Below are positions 18,668 through 52,905 of a DNA stretch of 64,000 nucleotides, one piece after another. Within the stretch, counting starts at the first letter, position 1. Every line of letters starts with the position of its first letter. Under the pieces are notes generated by a model. The model had not been told where the DNA came from and made no database searches. It saw only the letters and a program-made list of their open reading frames with translations. The stretch is from Minisyncoccota bacterium (GTDB taxonomy: Bacteria; Patescibacteriota; Minisyncoccia; Phycocordibacterales; SW-6-46-9), in contig JBBDRP010000002.1 of the NCBI GenBank assembly GCA_040905385.1, positions 595,403 through 659,402 of the forward strand, given 5' to 3'. The position numbers were made by a program, and so were the translations under genes.

Positions 18668-19549
18668 CTACTCGTCCAAAGCCTTACGTGCCAGCAACGC
18701 ACTTTTCTCTTTATCCTTTATCTCCAGCATAATATCAACATCCAGTCTGGTCTCGCGAATAGTCCGTAAAAATTCACGAAAATGATTCACATCAATATGC
18801 GTACGGTGCTTTCCCTTTCGTTCCTCGGGCTCCTGATCACTGTAATCAATCATCGGAATTCCGTCCTCCTTCTTCCAGGTCTCAGCCACCTCCTGAAGGG
18901 CCGCTTTCTCGTCCTCACCCTCATGCAGGCAGGCGTGATGAAGATTATCAAAAATAATCGGTATGCCGATCTCTTTATGAATCTCCAGACAGTCAGCCAC
19001 CGAATAGGAAACGTCATCATTCTCTATCACGAGCCGGTCCTGGATACGCTCGGGCAGCTTCTGGTACTGGGAGATAAAACGCTCCATAGCAGCTGGCTTG
19101 TCACCATACACACCACCTACATGAATCTGAATCTTGTGTCGACCATCCAGACCGAGTGCGTCCAGAACATCAGCGTGGTACTCGAGATCAGCCACTGCCC
19201 GACCGACCACCTCCTCGTCCTTAGCATTCAGCAGCGTATACTGCCCCGGATGCATCGAGATACGCATATCAGACGCAGATATAATCTCCCTAAGCGTTGT
19301 AAATTTATCCCTAAAATACGTAGCAAAATCAAAATCATGCACAGGATGAGAGCCGAACGGAATCAAATCCGAGGTAATTCGAAAAAAGAGCAGGTCATGC
19401 TCAACATTCCAGAGGAGGATCTTCTCGAGACAGTCCAGATTTCCGGATATCTTTTCTATCAGATACTCCTGGGAGTAGTTAGCCAGCCGAAAGGTTCGGG
19501 ATGGCCGGCAGTCAAATGCGTCATGTATGCATGGATATCCTATCTTCAT
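18668..19549 (-). CDS. uvsE: UV damage endonuclease UvdE
   Basis: MKIGYPCI... TIM-barrel UvdE pattern with conserved His/Glu. Confidence 0.75.
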   Translation of the reverse strand: MKIGYPCIHDAFDCRPSRTFRLANYSQEYLIEKISGNLDCLEKILLWNVEHDLLFFRITSDLIPFGSHPVHDFDFATYFRDKFTTLREIISASDMRISMHPGQYTLLNAKDEEVVGRAVADLEYHADVLDALGLDGRHKIQIHVGGVYGDKPAAMERFISQYQKLPERIQDRLVIENDDVSYSVADCLEIHKEIGIPIIFDNLHHACLHEGEDEKAALQEVAETWKKEDGIPMIDYSDQEPEERKGKHRTHIDVNHFREFLRTIRETRLDVDIMLEIKDKEKSALLARKALDE

Positions 19550-19558
19550 AATAATTTT

Positions 19559-20122
19559 TTACTCCTCACAAACTGCCCACAACCCGGTCCCTTCCTGACG
19601 CGCCGCCTCTTCAGCAGCCCGGAAGCTCTCCTGTTTCTCGTAGCCGTCACCAACTGTAAGCTCGCGCGCATACCCCTCCTCCAGCAGCGTCTGATTGATA
19701 AGCTCGCCATCGAGATACACGTAGGCCAGTCGGCGATCATACTCATCAACCGACGGCTGGCGAGGATCTCCCACCAAGCGCACCGTCTCACCCTCCAGCT
19801 TCCCGACCAAGAAATCCCGTGCCTCCCAGCCGAAACACGCTGCCTCTGGCCGGCCGGAGGCCTCCCAATCAATCTCTGGGGTATCAATACCAATCAAGCG
19901 AACAAAGTCAGACCCAGTCGCCACATCAATATTAATCGTATCACCATCCGTAATACGCCACACCGTTGCTGTCGCCGAGGTGGTTGTTACTACCTCTTCA
20001 TTCGCGTGATCTGCATCAGTATACATCCATCCAAACAGATCCAGTCCCATACCAAGGACAAGCACGGCGGCCACAACCAGCGCACCGATGGCACTGACTA
20101 AGTTTTTCTGCTGTGAGTTCAT
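19559..20122 (-). CDS. Secreted thermonuclease (SNase-like)
   Basis: N-terminal TM; RITDGDTINIDV...RLIGIDTPE; YARELTVGDGYE. Confidence 0.75.
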   Translation of the reverse strand: MNSQQKNLVSAIGALVVAAVLVLGMGLDLFGWMYTDADHANEEVVTTTSATATVWRITDGDTINIDVATGSDFVRLIGIDTPEIDWEASGRPEAACFGWEARDFLVGKLEGETVRLVGDPRQPSVDEYDRRLAYVYLDGELINQTLLEEGYARELTVGDGYEKQESFRAAEEAARQEGTGLWAVCEE

Positions 20123-20131
20123 AGAAATCCT

Positions 20132-20464
20132 TTAACTATCCTCCTCATTATTACTGTCAGAAATCTCTTCACGGATCACCTCTGGATACTCGGGAAAGAA
20201 GGTTTGAATATCAGACAGCGCGAAGCTCGACATTATATCAGCCGAGGACTCGCGCTGCAGCAGGAAGGAGAAGCTTGCCCAGACAAATCTTTTGGGTGTT
20301 ACGGCTTCATCCGTAAGCTCCTGGTAATAATCTCGGGAAAGCGTCACAGTATGCTTCGTGCCGGCCGGCGTCTCGACTGCGAACTCCCATCCAGCATCGG
20401 TTTCCTTTTTATCTGTAATGGTGATTGGAGACATCCCCTCTATTATTACATACCCCAGTACCAC
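20132..20464 (-). CDS. Hypothetical protein
   Basis: 110-aa ORF in an operon-like arrangement with the nuclease. Confidence 0.35.
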   Translation of the reverse strand: MVLGYVIIEGMSPITITDKKETDAGWEFAVETPAGTKHTVTLSRDYYQELTDEAVTPKRFVWASFSFLLQRESSADIMSSFALSDIQTFFPEYPEVIREEISDSNNEEDS

Positions 20465-47366: not shown

Positions 47367-48443
47367 CTACATCTTTATCACCCGTTTAGCAAACAGCTTC
47401 TGGGCAAACCCAACATTTGATACCACCCAGCCGACCAGCTTGAGACCGCCAGCTATCAGCGGATTATTGGTTAGCACCAGCTTGCGGGCTCGCTCGGTGC
47501 CGTCTATTACACGCTTCGCTTTGGCTCGCCTGGTTACTGCGTACGTGCTGATCGTGTTATCAACGATCGCCGCGACAACCGCCTGCCCGTCATCAATCCC
47601 CAGGTTCATCCCCCGACCACCCACCGGCGAGTGCGCGTGCGCCGCATCACCGGCCAAAACTACGCGCCCTTTTACATAGTCGTGAGCCTGGCGCACCGAA
47701 ATTTGGAAGGTTCCGGTATGCAGCACTTCTTTGATGTCCAGATCTATCGGCAGTACCGCCAGACTGTCCGGCGTAGAAGAAACCAGCCGTACGCGATTGG
47801 GTGCCATCGGGAACATCACCATAGCATCGCGCTGATCACGATCGCCATCCAGCATCCAGGCGGTGATTTTGTGGGTATCATAGGCGCCCTCCTCCAGCTG
47901 GAGATCAGCAATCGACCAGGTCTCCGGCAGCTCGTAGCCAGCGTAGTCTATGCCCATCGTATCGCGTACCGCCGAGTTGACCCCGTCGGCACCGATGATC
48001 CAGTCGTAGCTGCGGCGGCTTCCATCGGCAAAGGTAGCGGAGGCAGACGCTTTATCAGTCTGGACATCCGTTACCTTCCTACCGTACTGCACCTGCACAC
48101 CCAGCTCGGCCAGCTTCTGGCTCATGATTGTCTCGGTTTTATCCTGCGGCAGACCGATAATAAACTCAGACGGCGCAAAGAACTGATCAACATCAACATC
48201 GATCAGCCGCTTGCCGTCGCGGTAGATGTTGACGCGGCGGACATCCATACCCGCCGCTACCACCTGGTCACCGACACCGGTACGATTCATGATATCGATA
48301 CTTTTCGGTAGGATACCCACCGCCCGCGATAGCGGCGACGGCTGATCCTTAGCATCAACAATCTCCGGGGTAATCCCGCGGCGCGCCAGCTCTAACGCAG
48401 TTGTCTGGCCGGTCGGCCCGGCCCCGACGATTAGTATATTCAT
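47367..48443 (-). CDS. FAD-dependent monooxygenase (UbiH/PheA-class)
   Basis: MNILIVGAGPTGQTTALELARRG dinucleotide-binding motif; GDAAH; start at MNIL. Confidence 0.75.
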   Translation of the reverse strand: MNILIVGAGPTGQTTALELARRGITPEIVDAKDQPSPLSRAVGILPKSIDIMNRTGVGDQVVAAGMDVRRVNIYRDGKRLIDVDVDQFFAPSEFIIGLPQDKTETIMSQKLAELGVQVQYGRKVTDVQTDKASASATFADGSRRSYDWIIGADGVNSAVRDTMGIDYAGYELPETWSIADLQLEEGAYDTHKITAWMLDGDRDQRDAMVMFPMAPNRVRLVSSTPDSLAVLPIDLDIKEVLHTGTFQISVRQAHDYVKGRVVLAGDAAHAHSPVGGRGMNLGIDDGQAVVAAIVDNTISTYAVTRRAKAKRVIDGTERARKLVLTNNPLIAGGLKLVGWVVSNVGFAQKLFAKRVIKM

Positions 48444-48492
48444 ACCTTTATTATGACACGGCATTCGCTTGTTTACAGGCTGGTGTGTTTAT

Positions 48493-48726
48493 GCTACTTT
48501 TATTTTAGATTTCATTAATTTATACGTGCAGGGTTTGCTCAGTTACTGCCATGCTGTGATTTTCCTGCACGTCCTGAAGGTGGGGGTTCCGATGCACTCC
48601 ACCAGGTCGGCTGTCATTAAGACGGTCGACCTTTTTTATTTCCTCTCCAGCATCTGCTGGCGACGGACAATCGTAAACGTACCAACACACGAACCTACGC
48701 TAAATAGCGTGGGTTCATGCTTCTAA
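48493..48726. repeat. Copy A of a twice-occurring ~200-bp intergenic module (hairpin-rich candidate sRNA + remnant of the 3' end of the 51171..51479 gene)
   Basis: 48493-48650 matches 50900-51050 at about 75%; 48636-48700 encodes on the minus strand ...GTFTIVRRQQMLERK*, mirroring the C-terminus of the 51171..51479 product. Confidence 0.6.
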
Positions 48727-48746
48727 AATTTAATATAATCAGTTTC

Positions 48747-49706
48747 CTACTCAGCGTCATCACGAAGTGTTCGCTCCACACCTTCCTCCTCAACAGAGAT
48801 CATCACGTCATGATCTGCCCGCAGACGAGCTGTTAGTTGTGCAAAGATATTTTCATCAACCTTCTGAGCTAAGAAGCTGTACCACGGATAATCCACAGTC
48901 ACCTCACCATTACTGGTGGCTCGGGCTGTTGCTGTCGCTTGCGTTGGAATAAAACCAAACAAACGCAGACGTGTTTTGTAGCGCACCTCGGTCGTCTCCT
49001 TGTCAGACGCAATATCAACCACGTCTTCGTTATCTAGCGCAGCCGATGCTACGCGCAGACCAAAGTCATTAGCGGTAGTTATCTCACTCGCGGCCTGTAA
49101 TCGAGACCGGACTTCTTCCTTCTGCTCCTCGCTCCATCCACGAACATCATCACCAGAAACCCGAATAGAAACATCAGCGCGTGTTGGTGGTTGGTTTGTG
49201 TCATCGTCATCATCACAATCATCTCCTGTACACACATCACCACGGACGCGAATCTCTACCCCTACATTCTGCAGTGGACTGTTTTCATCAATTGAAAGGG
49301 CTTCTATGAGTTTTGGTGTAGTTTTGTCAATCCGCTTCCCGGCTCTGGAAGTGCCATCAATAATCCCATCGTCATCACTATCAGCATCATTCGGATCAAT
49401 GGCTGCTGAAGTAGTGCTGTTTGATCGAGCATCAGCACCATCCGCTGCCCGTACATCACTATATCCATCGCCATCGGTATCTCCGTCATCTCTGACCGTC
49501 GACCGGTTAGAGCGAGAATTGTTATAATTAGCCTCTTGCTGTTCCGATGTTTGCTCGTCATCAGCCGTATCTGTATCACCCTCACTACGCACCTCTGTCT
49601 GCTGCTGCGCTTCAACACGAACATCTGTCTGTGCCTGCGTGATAAATGCACCCGTCAGAAAAACGGCGATAGTAAGTGCGGTAGTTATGATTAGTTTATT
49701 TTTCAT
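48747..49706 (-). CDS. Secreted acidic protein with Asp-rich Ca-binding-like repeats (TSP type 3-like)
   Basis: Signal; DDGDTDGDGYSD, DPNDADSDDDGIIDG, CTGDDCDDDDD. Confidence 0.45.
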   Translation of the reverse strand: MKNKLIITTALTIAVFLTGAFITQAQTDVRVEAQQQTEVRSEGDTDTADDEQTSEQQEANYNNSRSNRSTVRDDGDTDGDGYSDVRAADGADARSNSTTSAAIDPNDADSDDDGIIDGTSRAGKRIDKTTPKLIEALSIDENSPLQNVGVEIRVRGDVCTGDDCDDDDDTNQPPTRADVSIRVSGDDVRGWSEEQKEEVRSRLQAASEITTANDFGLRVASAALDNEDVVDIASDKETTEVRYKTRLRLFGFIPTQATATARATSNGEVTVDYPWYSFLAQKVDENIFAQLTARLRADHDVMISVEEEGVERTLRDDAE

Positions 49707-49823
49707 ATAAATAGTATATTTAAATCCATTAATTAGTCTTCCTTTATAGTAGCACGTATCTACTCGGGTGTTATAGACTTACTGGATTTTTTCTGGATCT
49801 GCTAGCCAGTATGGAGTAACCAT

Positions 49824-49854
49824 CAAAAAACCCACGCCATGTGGCGCGGTTTTT
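49824..49854. terminator. Bidirectional intrinsic terminator
   Basis: AAAAAACCCACGCCatgtGGCGCGGTTTTTT. Confidence 0.55.
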
Positions 49855-49886
49855 TGAGTCCTTGATATCCTTTATCAGAACTAACT

Positions 49887-50738
49887 CTAGCGACTATCCA
49901 TTCCCGTGTTAACAAACTTAATACACAGCCCCTGGTTCTTGAAGCCGTAATCTTCCCAACCACCCTTCATACAGTCCTCTTTCGTCTGCGGATTCAGCTG
50001 ACCAACATGCCAATGGGCAGCATAATCTCCGTTATCAAGGTTCGGGAATGTATCTTCACCATAGTTGTAGCTGTTCAGGAAGAACTCACGTAGGAAGTTT
50101 TCACCACCTGGTCCGCGAGCAACCTCGTCACCGTTGATGTAGAAGACGTACTCTTCAGTACTGGTAGCCAACTCGATGCCAAGCGTTACCCACTCGCCGT
50201 AGGTAAAGTCGGTGTCAAGGTTAGTCCAGCCGTTGGCTGAATCCCACACACGCCAGCCCTCGTGATCACCTTCAGCTGAGTCACCGGAATCACTTGGTTC
50301 CAGATTAACAAACTCGATAATGCCAAACCAGTTATCGCGGTTTCCAGCACCTTCATCACCAACCGTCCAGAATCCAGCGCGAACGGCCTGGTCCTGCCAG
50401 TCCTCATCAATATACAGGTCAACCTGCATAGCTGTACCAAAGTTTTGTATTTCATCTGCAGCCGTCTTTATTCCTTCTGTACGCTGGAATGTCCCCGGTG
50501 CAGTTTCTGAACTATCAATACCAATTCGCGCCACGTCATCACGCGCAAATGCCGACACCGAAGTCACACCATCAGTCGGAAATGCACGATCCGCTTCCCA
50601 GTCATTATCAAGCTCACTTTGCGTAAATTAATCTAACATCCCGAAATGACTGCTAGCCGCCACATACCCCACTCCAAACAATAAGAGAGTGGCAATAGCG
50701 GCCACTGTCACGGTCGTAGATCGTAATGCTGTTGTCAT
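49887..50738 (-). pseudogene. Secreted beta-sandwich (lectin/glycosidase-like) protein gene with an in-frame TAA between the signal peptide and the mature domain
   Basis: ATG at 50738 encodes MTTALRSTTVTVAAIATLLLFGVGYVAASSHFGMLD, then TAA at 50628-50630, then the same frame continues FTQSELDNDWEADRAFPTDGV-TSVSAFARDD... (track ORF 49887..50567 starts at a GTG). Confidence 0.5.
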
Positions 50739-50899
50739 AAATTATAGTAATGTTATTAGTAAAGAACACTCTTGGTGGTGATTACAGCTCCACCGTACTA
50801 GTTATTATAGTACCTTTTAAGAAAGAAAGGGTTGTATTTGTGGAAAAAACAACTTCCAAGGTAACTACTCTGGATTTATTTACAACTGTATCTATTTTT

Positions 50900-51050
50900 G
50901 CTACTTTTGATTTAGATTTCATTAATTTATGCGTGTGGGTTTTCCTTGGTTATTCCCCTTTGGCTGAGGTTTTTCTGCACGTTGTAAGGTGGGGTTTTAT
51001 CTCCGCCTCACCGGGTCGGCTGCCGAATTCTCGGTAGTCGACTTTTTTTA
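50900..51050. repeat. Copy B (part 1) of the twice-occurring intergenic module
   Basis: Homologous to 48493-48650; ends in a hairpin + T7 (51020-51050). Confidence 0.6.
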
Positions 51051-51140
51051 TTTTCAAGCAAGCACTTCTGTGCTAAATTACACGCAGATCTGTACCACTT
51101 TCCTTTGAGCGGTAAGAGCCATACCTTGCTTACCGATCAG

Positions 51141-51172
51141 GGCCACCTGGTTGCACAGGTGGCCTTTTTTTT
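51141..51172 (+). terminator. Strong plus-strand intrinsic terminator GGCCACCTG-gttgca-CAGGTGGCC + T8
   Basis: Perfect 9-bp GC-rich stem, 6-nt loop, T8; no plus-strand CDS upstream, which suggests a non-coding transcript. Confidence 0.65.
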
Positions 51173-51479
51173 ATTTCCTCTCCAGCATCTGCTGGCGGCG
51201 GACAACTATAAATGTACCAACCCACGAGCCCATCACCAACGGCACGAGGTATAGAATATTTTCCGTAAACGAAAAGATTCCAAAAGCGATGATTATGTAC
51301 ACCACCGCGCCGGATGTCGCTGCCGCCACTGGGCGCTTGTCGGCCACGGCGCTCGTATAGTAGGTATTCAGAGCATCAATGACGATATACGCGATAAAAA
51401 TCAGCAGTGCAATCAAGAAACTGAACTCAGCCCACAGCACCGGCAGCGATACGTCGATAAAATGAGTTACGTAATCCAT
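51171..51479 (-). CDS. Small membrane protein
   Basis: 3 TM; the C-terminus ...GTFIVVRRQQMLERK is duplicated as a remnant at 48636-48700. Confidence 0.4.
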   Translation of the reverse strand: MDYVTHFIDVSLPVLWAEFSFLIALLIFIAYIVIDALNTYYTSAVADKRPVAAATSGAVVYIIIAFGIFSFTENILYLVPLVMGSWVGTFIVVRRQQMLERK

Positions 51480-51535: not shown

Positions 51536-52261
51536 ATGGACAGCGCAGAGATACCGACACATATGGAAACAATGCCGCTACAAAAGTACCTCGCCCACAA
51601 TGGTTACGGCTCGCGTCGCGACAGCGAAGAGCTGATTCGTGATGGCCGCGTACTGGTCAATGGATCAGTCGCCGAACTGGGCGCCTACGTCGACCCGACA
51701 GACACCGTCGAGGTACCCGACTTCGTCCCCCGCGAGCCCGAGACCTGGGCCTTCTACAAACCCCGCGGAATTGTGACGGTAAATGCCCAGCGCGATAACA
51801 AAGAAATAGCCGACATCACTGACCTGCCCGATGATGTGGTGCCGATCGGCCGACTAGACAAAGACTCCGAGGGCCTGATTCTACTTTCAAACAACAGCCG
51901 CCTGCCGCAGCAGATCCTCGGCTCCGGTGTCGAGAAGGAGTACTTTGTCGAGGTAGACAAAAAGATCACCCACGGCTTCCTGGTCGAGGTTAGAGGCGGC
52001 GTCAGCATCAAGATTCCGGACCGTGGCGGCAATATGCACTGGTACACCACGAAAAAGACCAAGGCCCGCCGCACCAGCCAGACGAGCTTCGAGATCATCC
52101 TGACCGAAGGTAAGAACCGCCAGATCCGTCGCATGTGCGCCGCACTTGGCTACGGCATCCGCACGCTGCGACGCTTCCGCATCGGCGACATTCGCCTCGA
52201 CGGCCTCCAGTCTAGCGAGATGCGAAAGCTTGATTTAGATACAGAGGATAGGGTGTTTTAA
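51536..52261 (+). CDS. rRNA pseudouridine synthase (RsuA/RluB/RluF family)
   Basis: S4-like N-terminus (LQKYLAHNGYGSRRDSEELIRDGRVLVNG) and catalytic GRLDKDSEGLILLSNN. Confidence 0.8.
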   Translation: MDSAEIPTHMETMPLQKYLAHNGYGSRRDSEELIRDGRVLVNGSVAELGAYVDPTDTVEVPDFVPREPETWAFYKPRGIVTVNAQRDNKEIADITDLPDDVVPIGRLDKDSEGLILLSNNSRLPQQILGSGVEKEYFVEVDKKITHGFLVEVRGGVSIKIPDRGGNMHWYTTKKTKARRTSQTSFEIILTEGKNRQIRRMCAALGYGIRTLRRFRIGDIRLDGLQSSEMRKLDLDTEDRVF

Positions 52262-52847
52262 AGCTCGACTGCTTCGGTGTTATATAAGAAAAGAGTGTGC
52301 GAGGTAATAGACAAAGGCGCCGAGTGAACCCCACCAGCCGATGATGGAGATAATGAAGCTCGCTATAATCTTGTGCTGAAGTGGTTGCGGAAGCAGTTCT
52401 GTATCCTTTCCTTTCTTCTCTTGTTTGATGAGATACGGACTTACTACAAAAGACAGAAATAGACCGTTGAGTATCAGCACTACCGCGGCGATGGCATGCG
52501 TATACACCATCCACGAGACCGGCTGCGTACTGTAGAAAATTACGCCGCCAATAATACCCAAGGTGATACCAAGCCAAATGAGCGGCTTAGTTACCTTGTG
52601 CGCCCGGATGGTCGCTTTCGTCCAGTAACCGGACGTACGTGCTAAAAATCCATGCACATCAATCACCGTTACCGCTCCAAGGCCGATGATATAGCCGGCG
52701 AGAAGTATAAAGAGACCGATAAATTCTAAAGAAATATCTAGTGTCATGATTTTTTATTATAGCATTTCTTAAACTACAGCCCGCCGGTCTCCAGCCGGCG
52801 AGATACGCAAGCTGGATTTAGATACAGAGGATAGGGTGTTTTAAGGC
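52224..52847. repeat. 41-bp direct repeats (52224-52264 and 52807-52847) flanking a 540-bp insert that carries gene 52280..52747
   Basis: gaaagcttgatttagatacagaggatagggtgttttaaagct vs gcaagctggatttagatacagaggatagggtgttttaaggct; the first copy is the 3' end of the pseudouridine synthase gene. Confidence 0.65.
52280..52747 (-). CDS. Membrane protein (4-5 TM) carried on the insert between the direct repeats
   Basis: 155 aa, hydrophobic. Confidence 0.4.
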   Translation of the reverse strand: MTLDISLEFIGLFILLAGYIIGLGAVTVIDVHGFLARTSGYWTKATIRAHKVTKPLIWLGITLGIIGGVIFYSTQPVSWMVYTHAIAAVVLILNGLFLSFVVSPYLIKQEKKGKDTELLPQPLQHKIIASFIISIIGWWGSLGAFVYYLAHSFLI

Positions 52848-52905
52848 TTAAACTCTTAAATATCTGCAATAGAAGCAACTTTCATTGCTCTCCTGTACCC
52901 ATTGT

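What the first reader, a model, noticed from the sequence alone, without database searches (positions are those of the whole stretch)
50567..50738. In-frame TAA between a signal peptide and its mature domain (pseudogene, sequencing error, or readthrough)
An ATG at 50738 (minus strand) opens a textbook signal peptide MTTALRSTTVTVAAIATLLLFGVGYVAASSHF-GMLD. It is followed by TAA (50628-50630). The same frame then continues without interruption into the 226-aa secreted-type beta-sandwich ORF 49887..50567. The ORF caller starts that ORF at a GTG only because of the stop. A secreted domain separated from its own signal peptide by a single ochre codon indicates a recent nonsense mutation, a base-call error, or programmed readthrough.
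Basis: seen in the sequence. Interest (0 to 1): 0.55.

Follow-up and report, generated by a model that had tools for sequence, protein, structure and literature searches.

The report
Secreted-protein gene broken by one stop
A gene for a secreted sugar-binding-type protein in an uncultured Paceibacterota bacterium carries one premature TAA stop just after its export signal, most likely a recent knockout mutation that the public annotation hides by calling a shortened gene; this is ordinary gene decay.

Summary
On the minus strand, ATG 50738 opens a 28-residue Sec-type signal peptide. TAA (50630-50628) is codon 37, and the same frame runs on to TAG 49887.

About 110 of the 120 listed relatives (Patescibacteria metagenomes, mostly 265-305 aa) read straight through this position with a sense codon, mostly Pro. 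The closest relatives have Ser, and one orthologue reads GAT TCA TTT ACG CAA where the window reads GAT TAA TTT ACG CAA. A single C>A change therefore explains the stop.

- **Real sequence:** an independent Logan assembly reproduces the TAA exactly.
- **Ordinary stop:** TAA ends 50 of 76 long ORFs in the window. TAA-T is the strongest known bacterial termination context. No RNA structure follows the stop.
- **Annotation artefact:** the annotated 226-aa ORF (GTG 50567) is a gene-caller fallback. It lacks the signal peptide and 20 conserved residues that form a helix and the first beta-strand of a ConA-like jelly roll.
- **Little decay:** the rest of the gene shows no extra damage.

Best reading is a recent nonsense mutation giving a null allele or young pseudogene (about 0.75).

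One oddity remains. Two other orthologues carry independent in-frame stops at codons 42 and 51. This clustering is suggestive but rests on biased sampling, so programmed readthrough stays improbable (about 5%).

The parts
49887..50738 (-). Whole conceptual gene: 283 codons plus the terminal TAG, interrupted at codon 37. It is the orthologue of a Patescibacteria family of secreted ConA-like proteins, mostly 265-305 aa.
   Evidence: Translation. 138 homologues, most covering 90-100% of the joined sequence. Alignment A1.
50655..50738 (-). Signal peptide, codons 1-28. It has an n-region with Arg6 and a hydrophobic core of about 20 residues. The c-region is V-A-A, with predicted SPase I cleavage before SSHF.
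   Evidence: Read directly from the sequence. Orthologues show the same n-h-c layout and an AxA|S[SN]HF pattern, and a minority have lipoprotein-type LxGC boxes. No dedicated signal-peptide predictor was available.
50628..50630 (-). Premature TAA at codon 37, followed by T (UAAU). It is the ninth codon after the predicted cleavage site. The likely ancestral codon is TCA (Ser), so the change is at 50629 (minus-strand A, plus-strand T, ancestral plus-strand G).
   Evidence: Orthologous codons are CCA/CCG (19 loci), and L029 has GAT TCA TTT ACG CAA. The nearest relatives P0002 and P0003 have Ser. The TAA is reproduced in the Logan contig.
50568..50627 (-). Twenty conserved codons of the mature domain (FTQSELDNDWEADRAFPTDG) stranded between the TAA and the annotated start. 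There is no in-frame ATG, GTG or TTG in this stretch.
   Evidence: F38, T39, E42, W47, D50, R51 and P54 are invariant in 36 sequences. In the model these residues form helix 3-9 and strand 10-13, with pLDDT 88-93.
49887..50567 (-). The annotated 226-aa ORF (NCBI WD335_03315), which starts at GTG = Val58. This is a gene-caller fallback start. It encodes the rest of the ConA-like jelly roll and a C-terminal two-Cys module of about 34 aa.
49822..49849 (-). Intrinsic terminator-like hairpin (CCGCGCCAcatgGCGTGG) plus T-run, 38 nt after the TAG. The gene looks like an intact monocistronic unit.
   Evidence: 7 pairs, 6 of them G-C, tail GTTTTTTGAT. Sequence.

Best explanation
This is a genuine, recent nonsense mutation in an accessory gene. 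The most likely change is a single C>A transversion turning Ser codon TCA into TAA at codon 37.

The intact ancestor was a Sec-exported protein of about 283 aa. It had a 28-residue signal peptide, a ConA-like lectin/glucanase-fold jelly roll and a small two-Cys C-terminal module.

With the TAA in place, ribosomes that start at ATG 50738 terminate efficiently after 36 residues. The product is a signal peptide with an 8-residue tail. The remaining 246 codons have no in-frame start until GTG 50567, which has no Shine-Dalgarno sequence. Any product from that GTG would lack the export signal, an N-terminal helix and the first beta-strand.

The locus is therefore a null allele or young pseudogene. 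The public annotation masks this as a 226-aa 'hypothetical protein'.

**Shown:** the stop, its reproducibility, orthologues reading through it, the one-step mutational path, normal use of TAA as a stop in this genome, and the lack of further decay.

**Inferred:** that no full-length protein is made, and that the mutation is fixed in the population rather than merely the majority allele.
For: - Orthologues span the stop with sense codons. About 110 of the 120 listed relatives have a contiguous signal peptide and mature domain.
- L029 differs from the window only by TCA versus TAA in the 15-nt context, and the nearest relatives have Ser there.
- An independent Logan assembly is identical over 2,564 bp, including the TAA.
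- TAA terminates 50 of 76 long ORFs in the window, and TAAT is the commonest stop tetranucleotide. UAA is the least leaky stop and UAAU the strongest bacterial termination signal (PMC5289835).
- The RNA downstream of the stop folds no better than shuffled sequence, z = +0.38.
- The lesion looks recent. The copy has 4 deviations at 113 highly conserved columns, against 4.0 +/- 3.5 in intact orthologues, and its terminator is intact.
- The family is dispensable and decays repeatedly:
  - independent nonsense lesions in L002 and L031;
  - frameshifts in L043, L044 and L034;
  - no synteny with any neighbour;
  - no paralogue in the window.
- No other convincingly interrupted gene is seen in the 64-kb window.
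Against: - No read-level data were available, so a minority or majority polymorphism or a systematic read error cannot be excluded.
- The absence of any further damage is also what continued function through leaky readthrough would predict.
- Two other orthologues have in-frame stops only 5 and 14 codons further on. Under a uniform nonsense model this is somewhat unlikely: P about 0.008 to 0.04 after conditioning on the given case.
- No expression data exist.
Confidence: 0.75

Rival explanations
1. Consensus artefact or polymorphism. The organism, or most of its population, has a sense codon here (TCA or similar). The TAA would then be a sequencing or consensus error, or one allele of a mixed population that both assemblers happened to follow.
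For: MAGs are population consensus sequences. Only one sample holds this contig. No close strain exists for comparison, since the next relative is 77% identical. The gene is otherwise perfectly preserved.
Against: Two different assemblers give the identical base. Substitution errors rarely dominate a consensus at normal Illumina depth. No other interrupted gene is seen in 64 kb, so this is not a generally error-ridden assembly.
Confidence: 0.1
2. Functional leaky or programmed readthrough. A small fraction of ribosomes insert an amino acid at the TAA. The column tolerates P, S, A, I, E, T and V. This would give a low, possibly regulated, level of full-length exported protein. The family may exploit early stops as an expression throttle.
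For: - The stop sits at a variable column 8 residues after the cleavage site, so any insertion would be tolerated.
- The gene shows no further decay.
- Independent in-frame stops occur at codon 42 (TAA-C, L002) and codon 51 (TGA-A, L031). Both genes are otherwise well-preserved.
- Codons 29-57 hold only about 9% of one-step nonsense paths.
Against: - UAA-U is the tightest bacterial termination context (PMC5289835), and TAA is the main stop in this genome.
- No downstream RNA structure.
- The stops in the three genes are at different codons, are of different kinds and have different +4 bases.
- Two of them replace invariant residues (E42, R51).
- At least 100 relatives have no stop.
- Sampling was biased towards N-terminal lesions, and frameshift lesions are scattered at about codons 69, 101 and 180.
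Confidence: 0.07
3. The truncated 226-aa product from GTG 50567 is the functional protein, a cytoplasmic and signal-less derivative, as the public annotation implies.
For: Gene callers pick this start in four independent loci. The ORF is intact to its TAG and is followed by a terminator.
Against: - The product would lose seven invariant residues, a helix and the first strand of the jelly roll.
- No SD precedes the GTG, and that Val codon is GTG in only 10 of 34 loci.
- All intact relatives are exported proteins.
- The two Cys of the C-terminal module are invariant in the 36-sequence alignment, which suggests an extracytoplasmic disulfide.
Confidence: 0.03
4. TAA is reassigned or suppressed in this organism through an alternative genetic code or a suppressor tRNA.
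For: Alternative codes occur in some Patescibacteria (UGA in Gracilibacteria and Absconditabacteria; my own background knowledge). TGA is rare as a stop here, ending 3 of 76 long ORFs.
Against: TAA ends 50 of 76 long ORFs and table 11 gives 87% coding density with long ORFs. There is no other in-frame TAA in a recognisable gene. No tRNA gene lies in the window.
Confidence: 0.01

Closest known systems
Ordinary bacterial pseudogene or null allele created by a single nonsense mutation and mis-annotated as a shorter ORF
   Same: There is one in-frame stop inside a region collinear with intact orthologues, reachable by a one-step mutation. The stop codon is a normal terminator in this genome. The gene caller restarts at the next available start codon.
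   Different: The locus is very young. It has no secondary lesions, and its signal peptide and terminator are intact. Fixation in the population has not been shown.
Programmed stop-codon readthrough in bacteria and phages, such as the UGA readthrough that makes the Qbeta A1 protein (my own background knowledge)
   Same: An in-frame stop is followed by a long conserved open frame in the same phase.
   Different: Known cases use leaky stops, typically UGA, in permissive contexts, and the stop is conserved among relatives. Here the stop is UAA-U, it is not conserved at this column, and no stimulatory structure follows.
Concanavalin A-like lectin/glucanase superfold (GH16 glucanases, PL7 lyases, legume-type lectins)
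   Different: Sequence identity is only 6-16%, and there is no Pfam, NCBIfam or PDB sequence hit. The family's conserved IIEFVNLE strand lacks the Asp of the GH16 ExDx(x)E motif. The protein carries an extra two-Cys C-terminal module.

Membership tests
Pseudogene by nonsense mutation | In-frame stop inside sequence collinear with intact orthologues | tested here: met
   Orthologues align over residues 1-283 of the joined protein with a sense codon at column 37.
Pseudogene by nonsense mutation | The stop is present in the DNA and is not an assembly artefact | tested here: inconclusive
   A second assembler (Logan, SRR27977661) gives the identical sequence. Reads could not be inspected.
Pseudogene by nonsense mutation | The codon acts as a terminator in this genome | tested here: met
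   TAA ends 50 of 76 long ORFs, and TAAT is the commonest stop tetranucleotide.
Pseudogene by nonsense mutation | No full-length product is made | not testable with these tools
   This needs proteomics, ribosome profiling or a reporter assay.
Programmed stop-codon readthrough | Stop codon conserved at the same position among relatives | tested here: not met
   No relative has a stop at this column. Two relatives have stops at other codons, 42 and 51.
Programmed stop-codon readthrough | Leaky stop and permissive +4 context | tested here: not met
   UAA followed by U is the least leaky combination (PMC5289835).
Programmed stop-codon readthrough | Stimulatory RNA structure downstream | tested here: not met
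   MFE is -27.1 kcal/mol against shuffles at -28.3 +/- 3.2, z = +0.38.
Stop-codon reassignment (alternative genetic code) | The codon is absent or rare at true gene ends and frequent in-frame in conserved genes | tested here: not met
   TAA is the majority stop. No other in-frame TAA occurs in a recognisable gene of the window.
Stop-codon reassignment (alternative genetic code) | A cognate suppressor tRNA is encoded | tested here: inconclusive
   There are no tRNA genes in the 64-kb window. The rest of the 784-kb contig was not available.
Sec (SPase I) signal peptide | Basic n-region, hydrophobic h-region of about 10-20 residues, small residues at -3 and -1 | tested here: met
   In MTTALR-STTVTVAAIATLLLFGVGY-VAA|SS, the orthologues share the AxA|S[SN]HF pattern. 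This was judged by inspection, without a dedicated predictor.
ConA-like lectin/glucanase superfold | Two-sheet beta-jelly roll of about 200 residues matching known members | tested here: met
Glycoside hydrolase family 16 | Catalytic ExDx(x)E motif on the concave sheet | tested here: inconclusive
   The only conserved E....E strand is IIEFVNLE (E142, V144, E147), which has no Asp. Whether it superposes on the GH16 catalytic strand was not checked. There is no sequence-level match to any GH16 model.

The most novel reading that the evidence does not exclude
Early in-frame stop codons just downstream of the signal-peptide cleavage site may be a recurrent, selected feature of this Patescibacteria secreted-protein family. 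Cases are the window at codon 37 (TAA), L002 at codon 42 (TAA) and L031 at codon 51 (TGA). The stops could act as a readthrough-dependent throttle or as a reversible off-switch for a surface or secreted ConA-like protein, rather than three unrelated pseudogenisations.
Probability: 0.05. Interest if true: 0.6.

Novelty: new member of a known kind. Interest (0 to 1): 0.17.

Why it matters
The main value is practical. The public record calls this a 226-aa hypothetical protein. It should be flagged as a disrupted gene of 283 codons, because the annotated start is an artefact of the stop.

The case also illustrates a general pitfall. In families with no curated model (no Pfam or NCBIfam hit), gene callers silently turn N-terminal nonsense mutations into plausible-looking shorter proteins. 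At least three other database entries of this family (P0068, P0072, P0119) are such artefacts, and P0111 is probably a fourth: its upstream frame is open but holds no start codon or signal peptide.

Biologically, the locus adds one data point on the turnover of accessory secreted proteins in reduced-genome Patescibacteria. Only if the early-stop clustering proved real would it bear on translational recoding.

Tried and rejected
- **TAA recoding.** Rejected on stop-codon usage.
- **Other interrupted genes in the window.** Every same-frame open segment pair separated by one stop was listed.
  - The 20482-18671 triple is three separate genes (unknown, SNase, UvdE), each with its own ATG.
  - The TGA-separated pair 56891-56064 is two genes. 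The second starts with its own TM helix followed by a wHTH.
- **Designed internal start at Val58.** Rejected, because the codon is not conserved as GTG and no SD precedes it.
- **Readthrough-stimulating structure.** None found.
- **Hopping or frameshifting.** There is no slippery run or matching take-off and landing codons in GAT TAA TTT, and the frame is unchanged, so these are not needed (read from the sequence).
- **Diversity-generating retroelement or hypermutation of the N-terminus.** I considered this because L004 differs strongly from its near-identical relative P0089 only in the first 40 or so residues. That stretch lies at the end of a 992-bp contig and no reverse transcriptase is nearby, so I treated it as unreliable.
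- **TGA as a sense codon in L031.** Rejected. The only in-frame TGA in a recognisable gene of that locus is the one in this family's gene.
- **Searches that returned nothing useful.** Rfam at gathering threshold on the whole window and at permissive threshold on 48400-51300. Pfam and NCBIfam on the protein. PDB by sequence.
- **afdb50 fold library.** Unavailable.
- **Synteny.** None with any neighbour.

Full report
**1. Observation**

An in-frame stop lies two codons upstream of ATG 50738. Thirty-six sense codons follow (MTTALRSTTVTVAAIATLLLFGVGYVAASSHFGMLD). TAA sits at 50630-50628 and the next base is T.

The same frame then runs on: FTQSELDNDWEADRAFPTDG, GTG 50567, and 225 further codons to TAG 49889-49887. 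Between the TAA and GTG 50567 there is no in-frame ATG, GTG or TTG. A terminator-like hairpin with a T-run follows the TAG (49849-49822).

**2. Source and annotation**

The 226-aa ORF is identical to NCBI protein WD335_03315, 'hypothetical protein', from a Candidatus Paceibacterota MAG on a 784-kb contig.

The window has 47% GC. Table 11 reads it well, with 76 non-overlapping ORFs of at least 80 aa covering 87% of it. It holds no tRNA gene and no Rfam match.

**3. Orthologues read through the stop**

I searched with the joined protein, writing the stop as X. This found 138 relatives, essentially all from Patescibacteria-type metagenomes. They are mostly 265-305 aa long, and most cover 90-100% of the joined sequence.

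- In a 36-sequence alignment the stop column holds Pro in most sequences, and otherwise Ser, Ala, Ile, Glu, Thr or Val.
- The 20 residues after the stop contain seven invariant columns: F38, T39, E42, W47, D50, R51 and P54.
- About 110 of the 120 listed proteins carry a contiguous signal peptide and mature domain. The signal peptides are of the Sec AxA|S[SN]HF type, with some lipoprotein-type boxes.

It is not met.

**4. Mutational path**

Across the orthologous DNA loci, the codon before the conserved Phe-Thr is CCA or CCG in 19 loci.

- L029 reads GAT TCA TTT ACG CAA where the window reads GAT TAA TTT ACG CAA.
- The two closest relatives, P0002 and P0003, have Ser at this column.

One C>A transversion at 50629 on the coding strand is therefore sufficient.

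**5. Is the TAA real?**

A Logan assembly of run SRR27977661 yields a 2,564-bp contig identical to window 48633-51196. Its gene caller also calls the 36-aa and 226-aa ORFs separately.

This excludes an assembler-specific error. It does not exclude a population polymorphism, because reads could not be inspected.

No near-identical intact allele exists in the 15-billion-protein collection. The next relative is 77% identical.

**6. Is TAA an ordinary stop here?**

Yes.

- TAA ends 50 of the 76 long ORFs, TAG ends 23 and TGA ends 3. TAAT is the commonest stop tetranucleotide.
- UAA is the least leaky stop, and UAAU is regarded as the strongest bacterial termination signal (PMC5289835).
- The 111 nt around and after the stop fold no better than shuffled sequence, z = +0.38.
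- Same-frame ORF neighbours elsewhere in the window are ordinary packed genes.

Nothing points to recoding or to a generally broken assembly.

**7. What the annotated ORF loses**

An AlphaFold2 model of the 246 residues after the stop is confident (pLDDT 91.4, pTM 0.82).

- Residues 1-20, which are missing from the annotated ORF, form a helix and the first strand.
- A small C-terminal module with two conserved Cys follows.
- No Pfam, NCBIfam or PDB sequence match exists.

The restart codon for Val58 is GTG in only 10 of 34 loci, and no Shine-Dalgarno sequence precedes it. The 226-aa call is a fallback start, not a designed isoform.

**8. Age of the lesion**

At the 113 columns where at least 90% of intact orthologues agree, the window's copy deviates 4 times. 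Intact orthologues deviate 4.0 +/- 3.5 times.

The lesion is therefore recent, or the gene is still under selection.

**9. Family-wide lesions**

Proteins that start at the same internal M/V-TSVS led me to other broken copies.

| Locus (protein) | Lesion |
|---|---|
| Window | TAA at codon 37 |
| L002 (P0072) | TAA-C replacing the invariant Glu42 |
| L031 (P0119) | TGA-A replacing the invariant Arg51; no sign of TGA recoding in that locus |
| L004 (P0068) | TAA near codon 33, in a diverged stretch at the end of a 992-bp contig; unreliable |
| L043 (P0117) | Frameshift at about codon 69 |
| L044 (P0122) | Frameshift at about codon 101 |
| L034 | Frameshift at about codon 180 |
| L003 (P0111), L042 (P0083) | No signal peptide upstream |
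| P0123 | N-terminal half not called as a gene; no DNA available |

In the 37 loci fetched through motifs inside the mature domain, which is an unbiased route, one nonsense lesion (L031) and one frameshift (L034) were found.

The family is free-standing, with no synteny to any window neighbour. No paralogue lies in the window. It behaves as a dispensable accessory gene that is repeatedly inactivated.

**10. The one oddity**

All reliable nonsense lesions fall at codons 37, 42 and 51. Codons 29-57 hold only about 9% of the possible one-step nonsense mutations, averaged over 25 intact orthologue CDSs.

Conditioning on the given case, the chance that two further lesions both fall there depends on what was detectable:

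- about 0.008 if lesions anywhere in the gene were equally detectable;
- about 0.04 if only lesions in codons 1-150 were detectable.

Several points keep this from being convincing:

- The interval was defined after seeing the data, and n = 3.
- Sampling through high-scoring C-terminal fragments favours early lesions.
- Frameshifts are scattered along the gene.
- The three stops differ in codon, context and position.
- Two of the stops replace invariant residues.

I regard the clustering as suggestive but unproven. A mundane explanation is that early nonsense alleles are the least harmful nulls, because no long unfolded fragment is exported.

**11. Verdict**

The best explanation, at about 0.75, is a real and recent TCA>TAA nonsense mutation. 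It makes a null allele or young pseudogene of a secreted ConA-like protein, and the public annotation mis-records it as a shorter gene.

| Rival | Confidence |
|---|---|
| Consensus artefact or segregating polymorphism | about 0.10 |
| Functional leaky or programmed readthrough | about 0.07 |
| Functional signal-less 226-aa product | about 0.03 |
| TAA reassignment | about 0.01 |

The phenomenon is of a well-known kind and interest is low. The residual novel reading, selected early stops in this family, has about 5% probability.

Noticed in passing
window 48469-48695 versus 50876-51064 and 51160-51230: A segmental duplication flanks the two-gene block 48747-50738. The 51167-51230 part is the 3' end of the membrane-protein gene 51171-51479 (…GSWVGTFIVVRRQQMLERK*). 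Copy A keeps a non-coding remnant of it. A 31-nt exact core explains why the Logan contig ends at 48633 and 51196. No Rfam hit.
   Followed up: partly
window 51013-51054 and 51139-51176 (+ strand): Two strong terminator-like hairpins with T-runs lie on the plus strand, in the 433-nt intergenic region upstream of the gene. No obvious plus-strand gene lies in front of them. They could mark a small RNA or be bidirectional terminators.
   Followed up: no
whole window: TGA ends only 3 of 76 long ORFs, against 50 for TAA and 23 for TAG, which is low for a genome of 47% GC.
   Followed up: no
L002 2848-3672; L031 about 1420-2349: Two orthologues carry independent in-frame stops 5 and 14 codons downstream of this window's stop: TAA replacing the invariant Glu42, and TGA replacing the invariant Arg51. 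The rest of each gene is well preserved. Database proteins P0072 and P0119 are the resulting truncated calls.
   Followed up: partly
L043 444-1264; L044 512-1338; L034 88-938: Three further orthologues are split by frameshifts at about codons 69, 101 and 180. These are either real pseudogenes or indel errors in short metagenome contigs.
   Followed up: partly
window 49887-49990 (C-terminal module); P0124; L008 1154-1231; L037 326-418 and 1527-1628: The last 34 or so residues (CxxGGWxxxGFxNQGxC..FVNTGxDSR, with two conserved Cys) form a module shared with otherwise unrelated secreted proteins. P0124 is 85% identical over this stretch. Neighbouring genes in L008 and L037 carry second copies. It may be a common surface-anchoring or sorting module of Patescibacteria.
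   Followed up: partly
window 52215-52265 versus 52798-52848: A 51-nt direct repeat at 92% identity. The first copy is the 3' end of the RluB-like pseudouridine synthase gene (51536-52261). The second lies in the next intergenic region.
   Followed up: no
window 18668-20464 (- strand): Three consecutive genes (a 110-aa unknown, an SNase-like nuclease and a UvdE UV-endonuclease) lie in the same reading frame. Each pair is separated by a TAA and three codons. This is ordinary tight packing, not a split gene. A 439-aa antisense ORF (18782-20101, +) over them has no Pfam hit and is probably spurious.
   Followed up: yes
loci L012, L014, L017, L018, L020, L021: Some MAGs that carry family members are labelled Woesearchaeota, Chloroflexia, Methanosarcinales, Gammaproteobacteria, Halobacteriales or Actinomycetes. 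This suggests mis-binning of Patescibacteria contigs, or horizontal transfer for the more divergent copies at 43-58% identity.
   Followed up: no
window 50741-50746: A perfect TATAAT hexamer ends 2 nt before ATG 50738, and no Shine-Dalgarno-like sequence is evident upstream. How this gene initiates translation was not examined.
   Followed up: no
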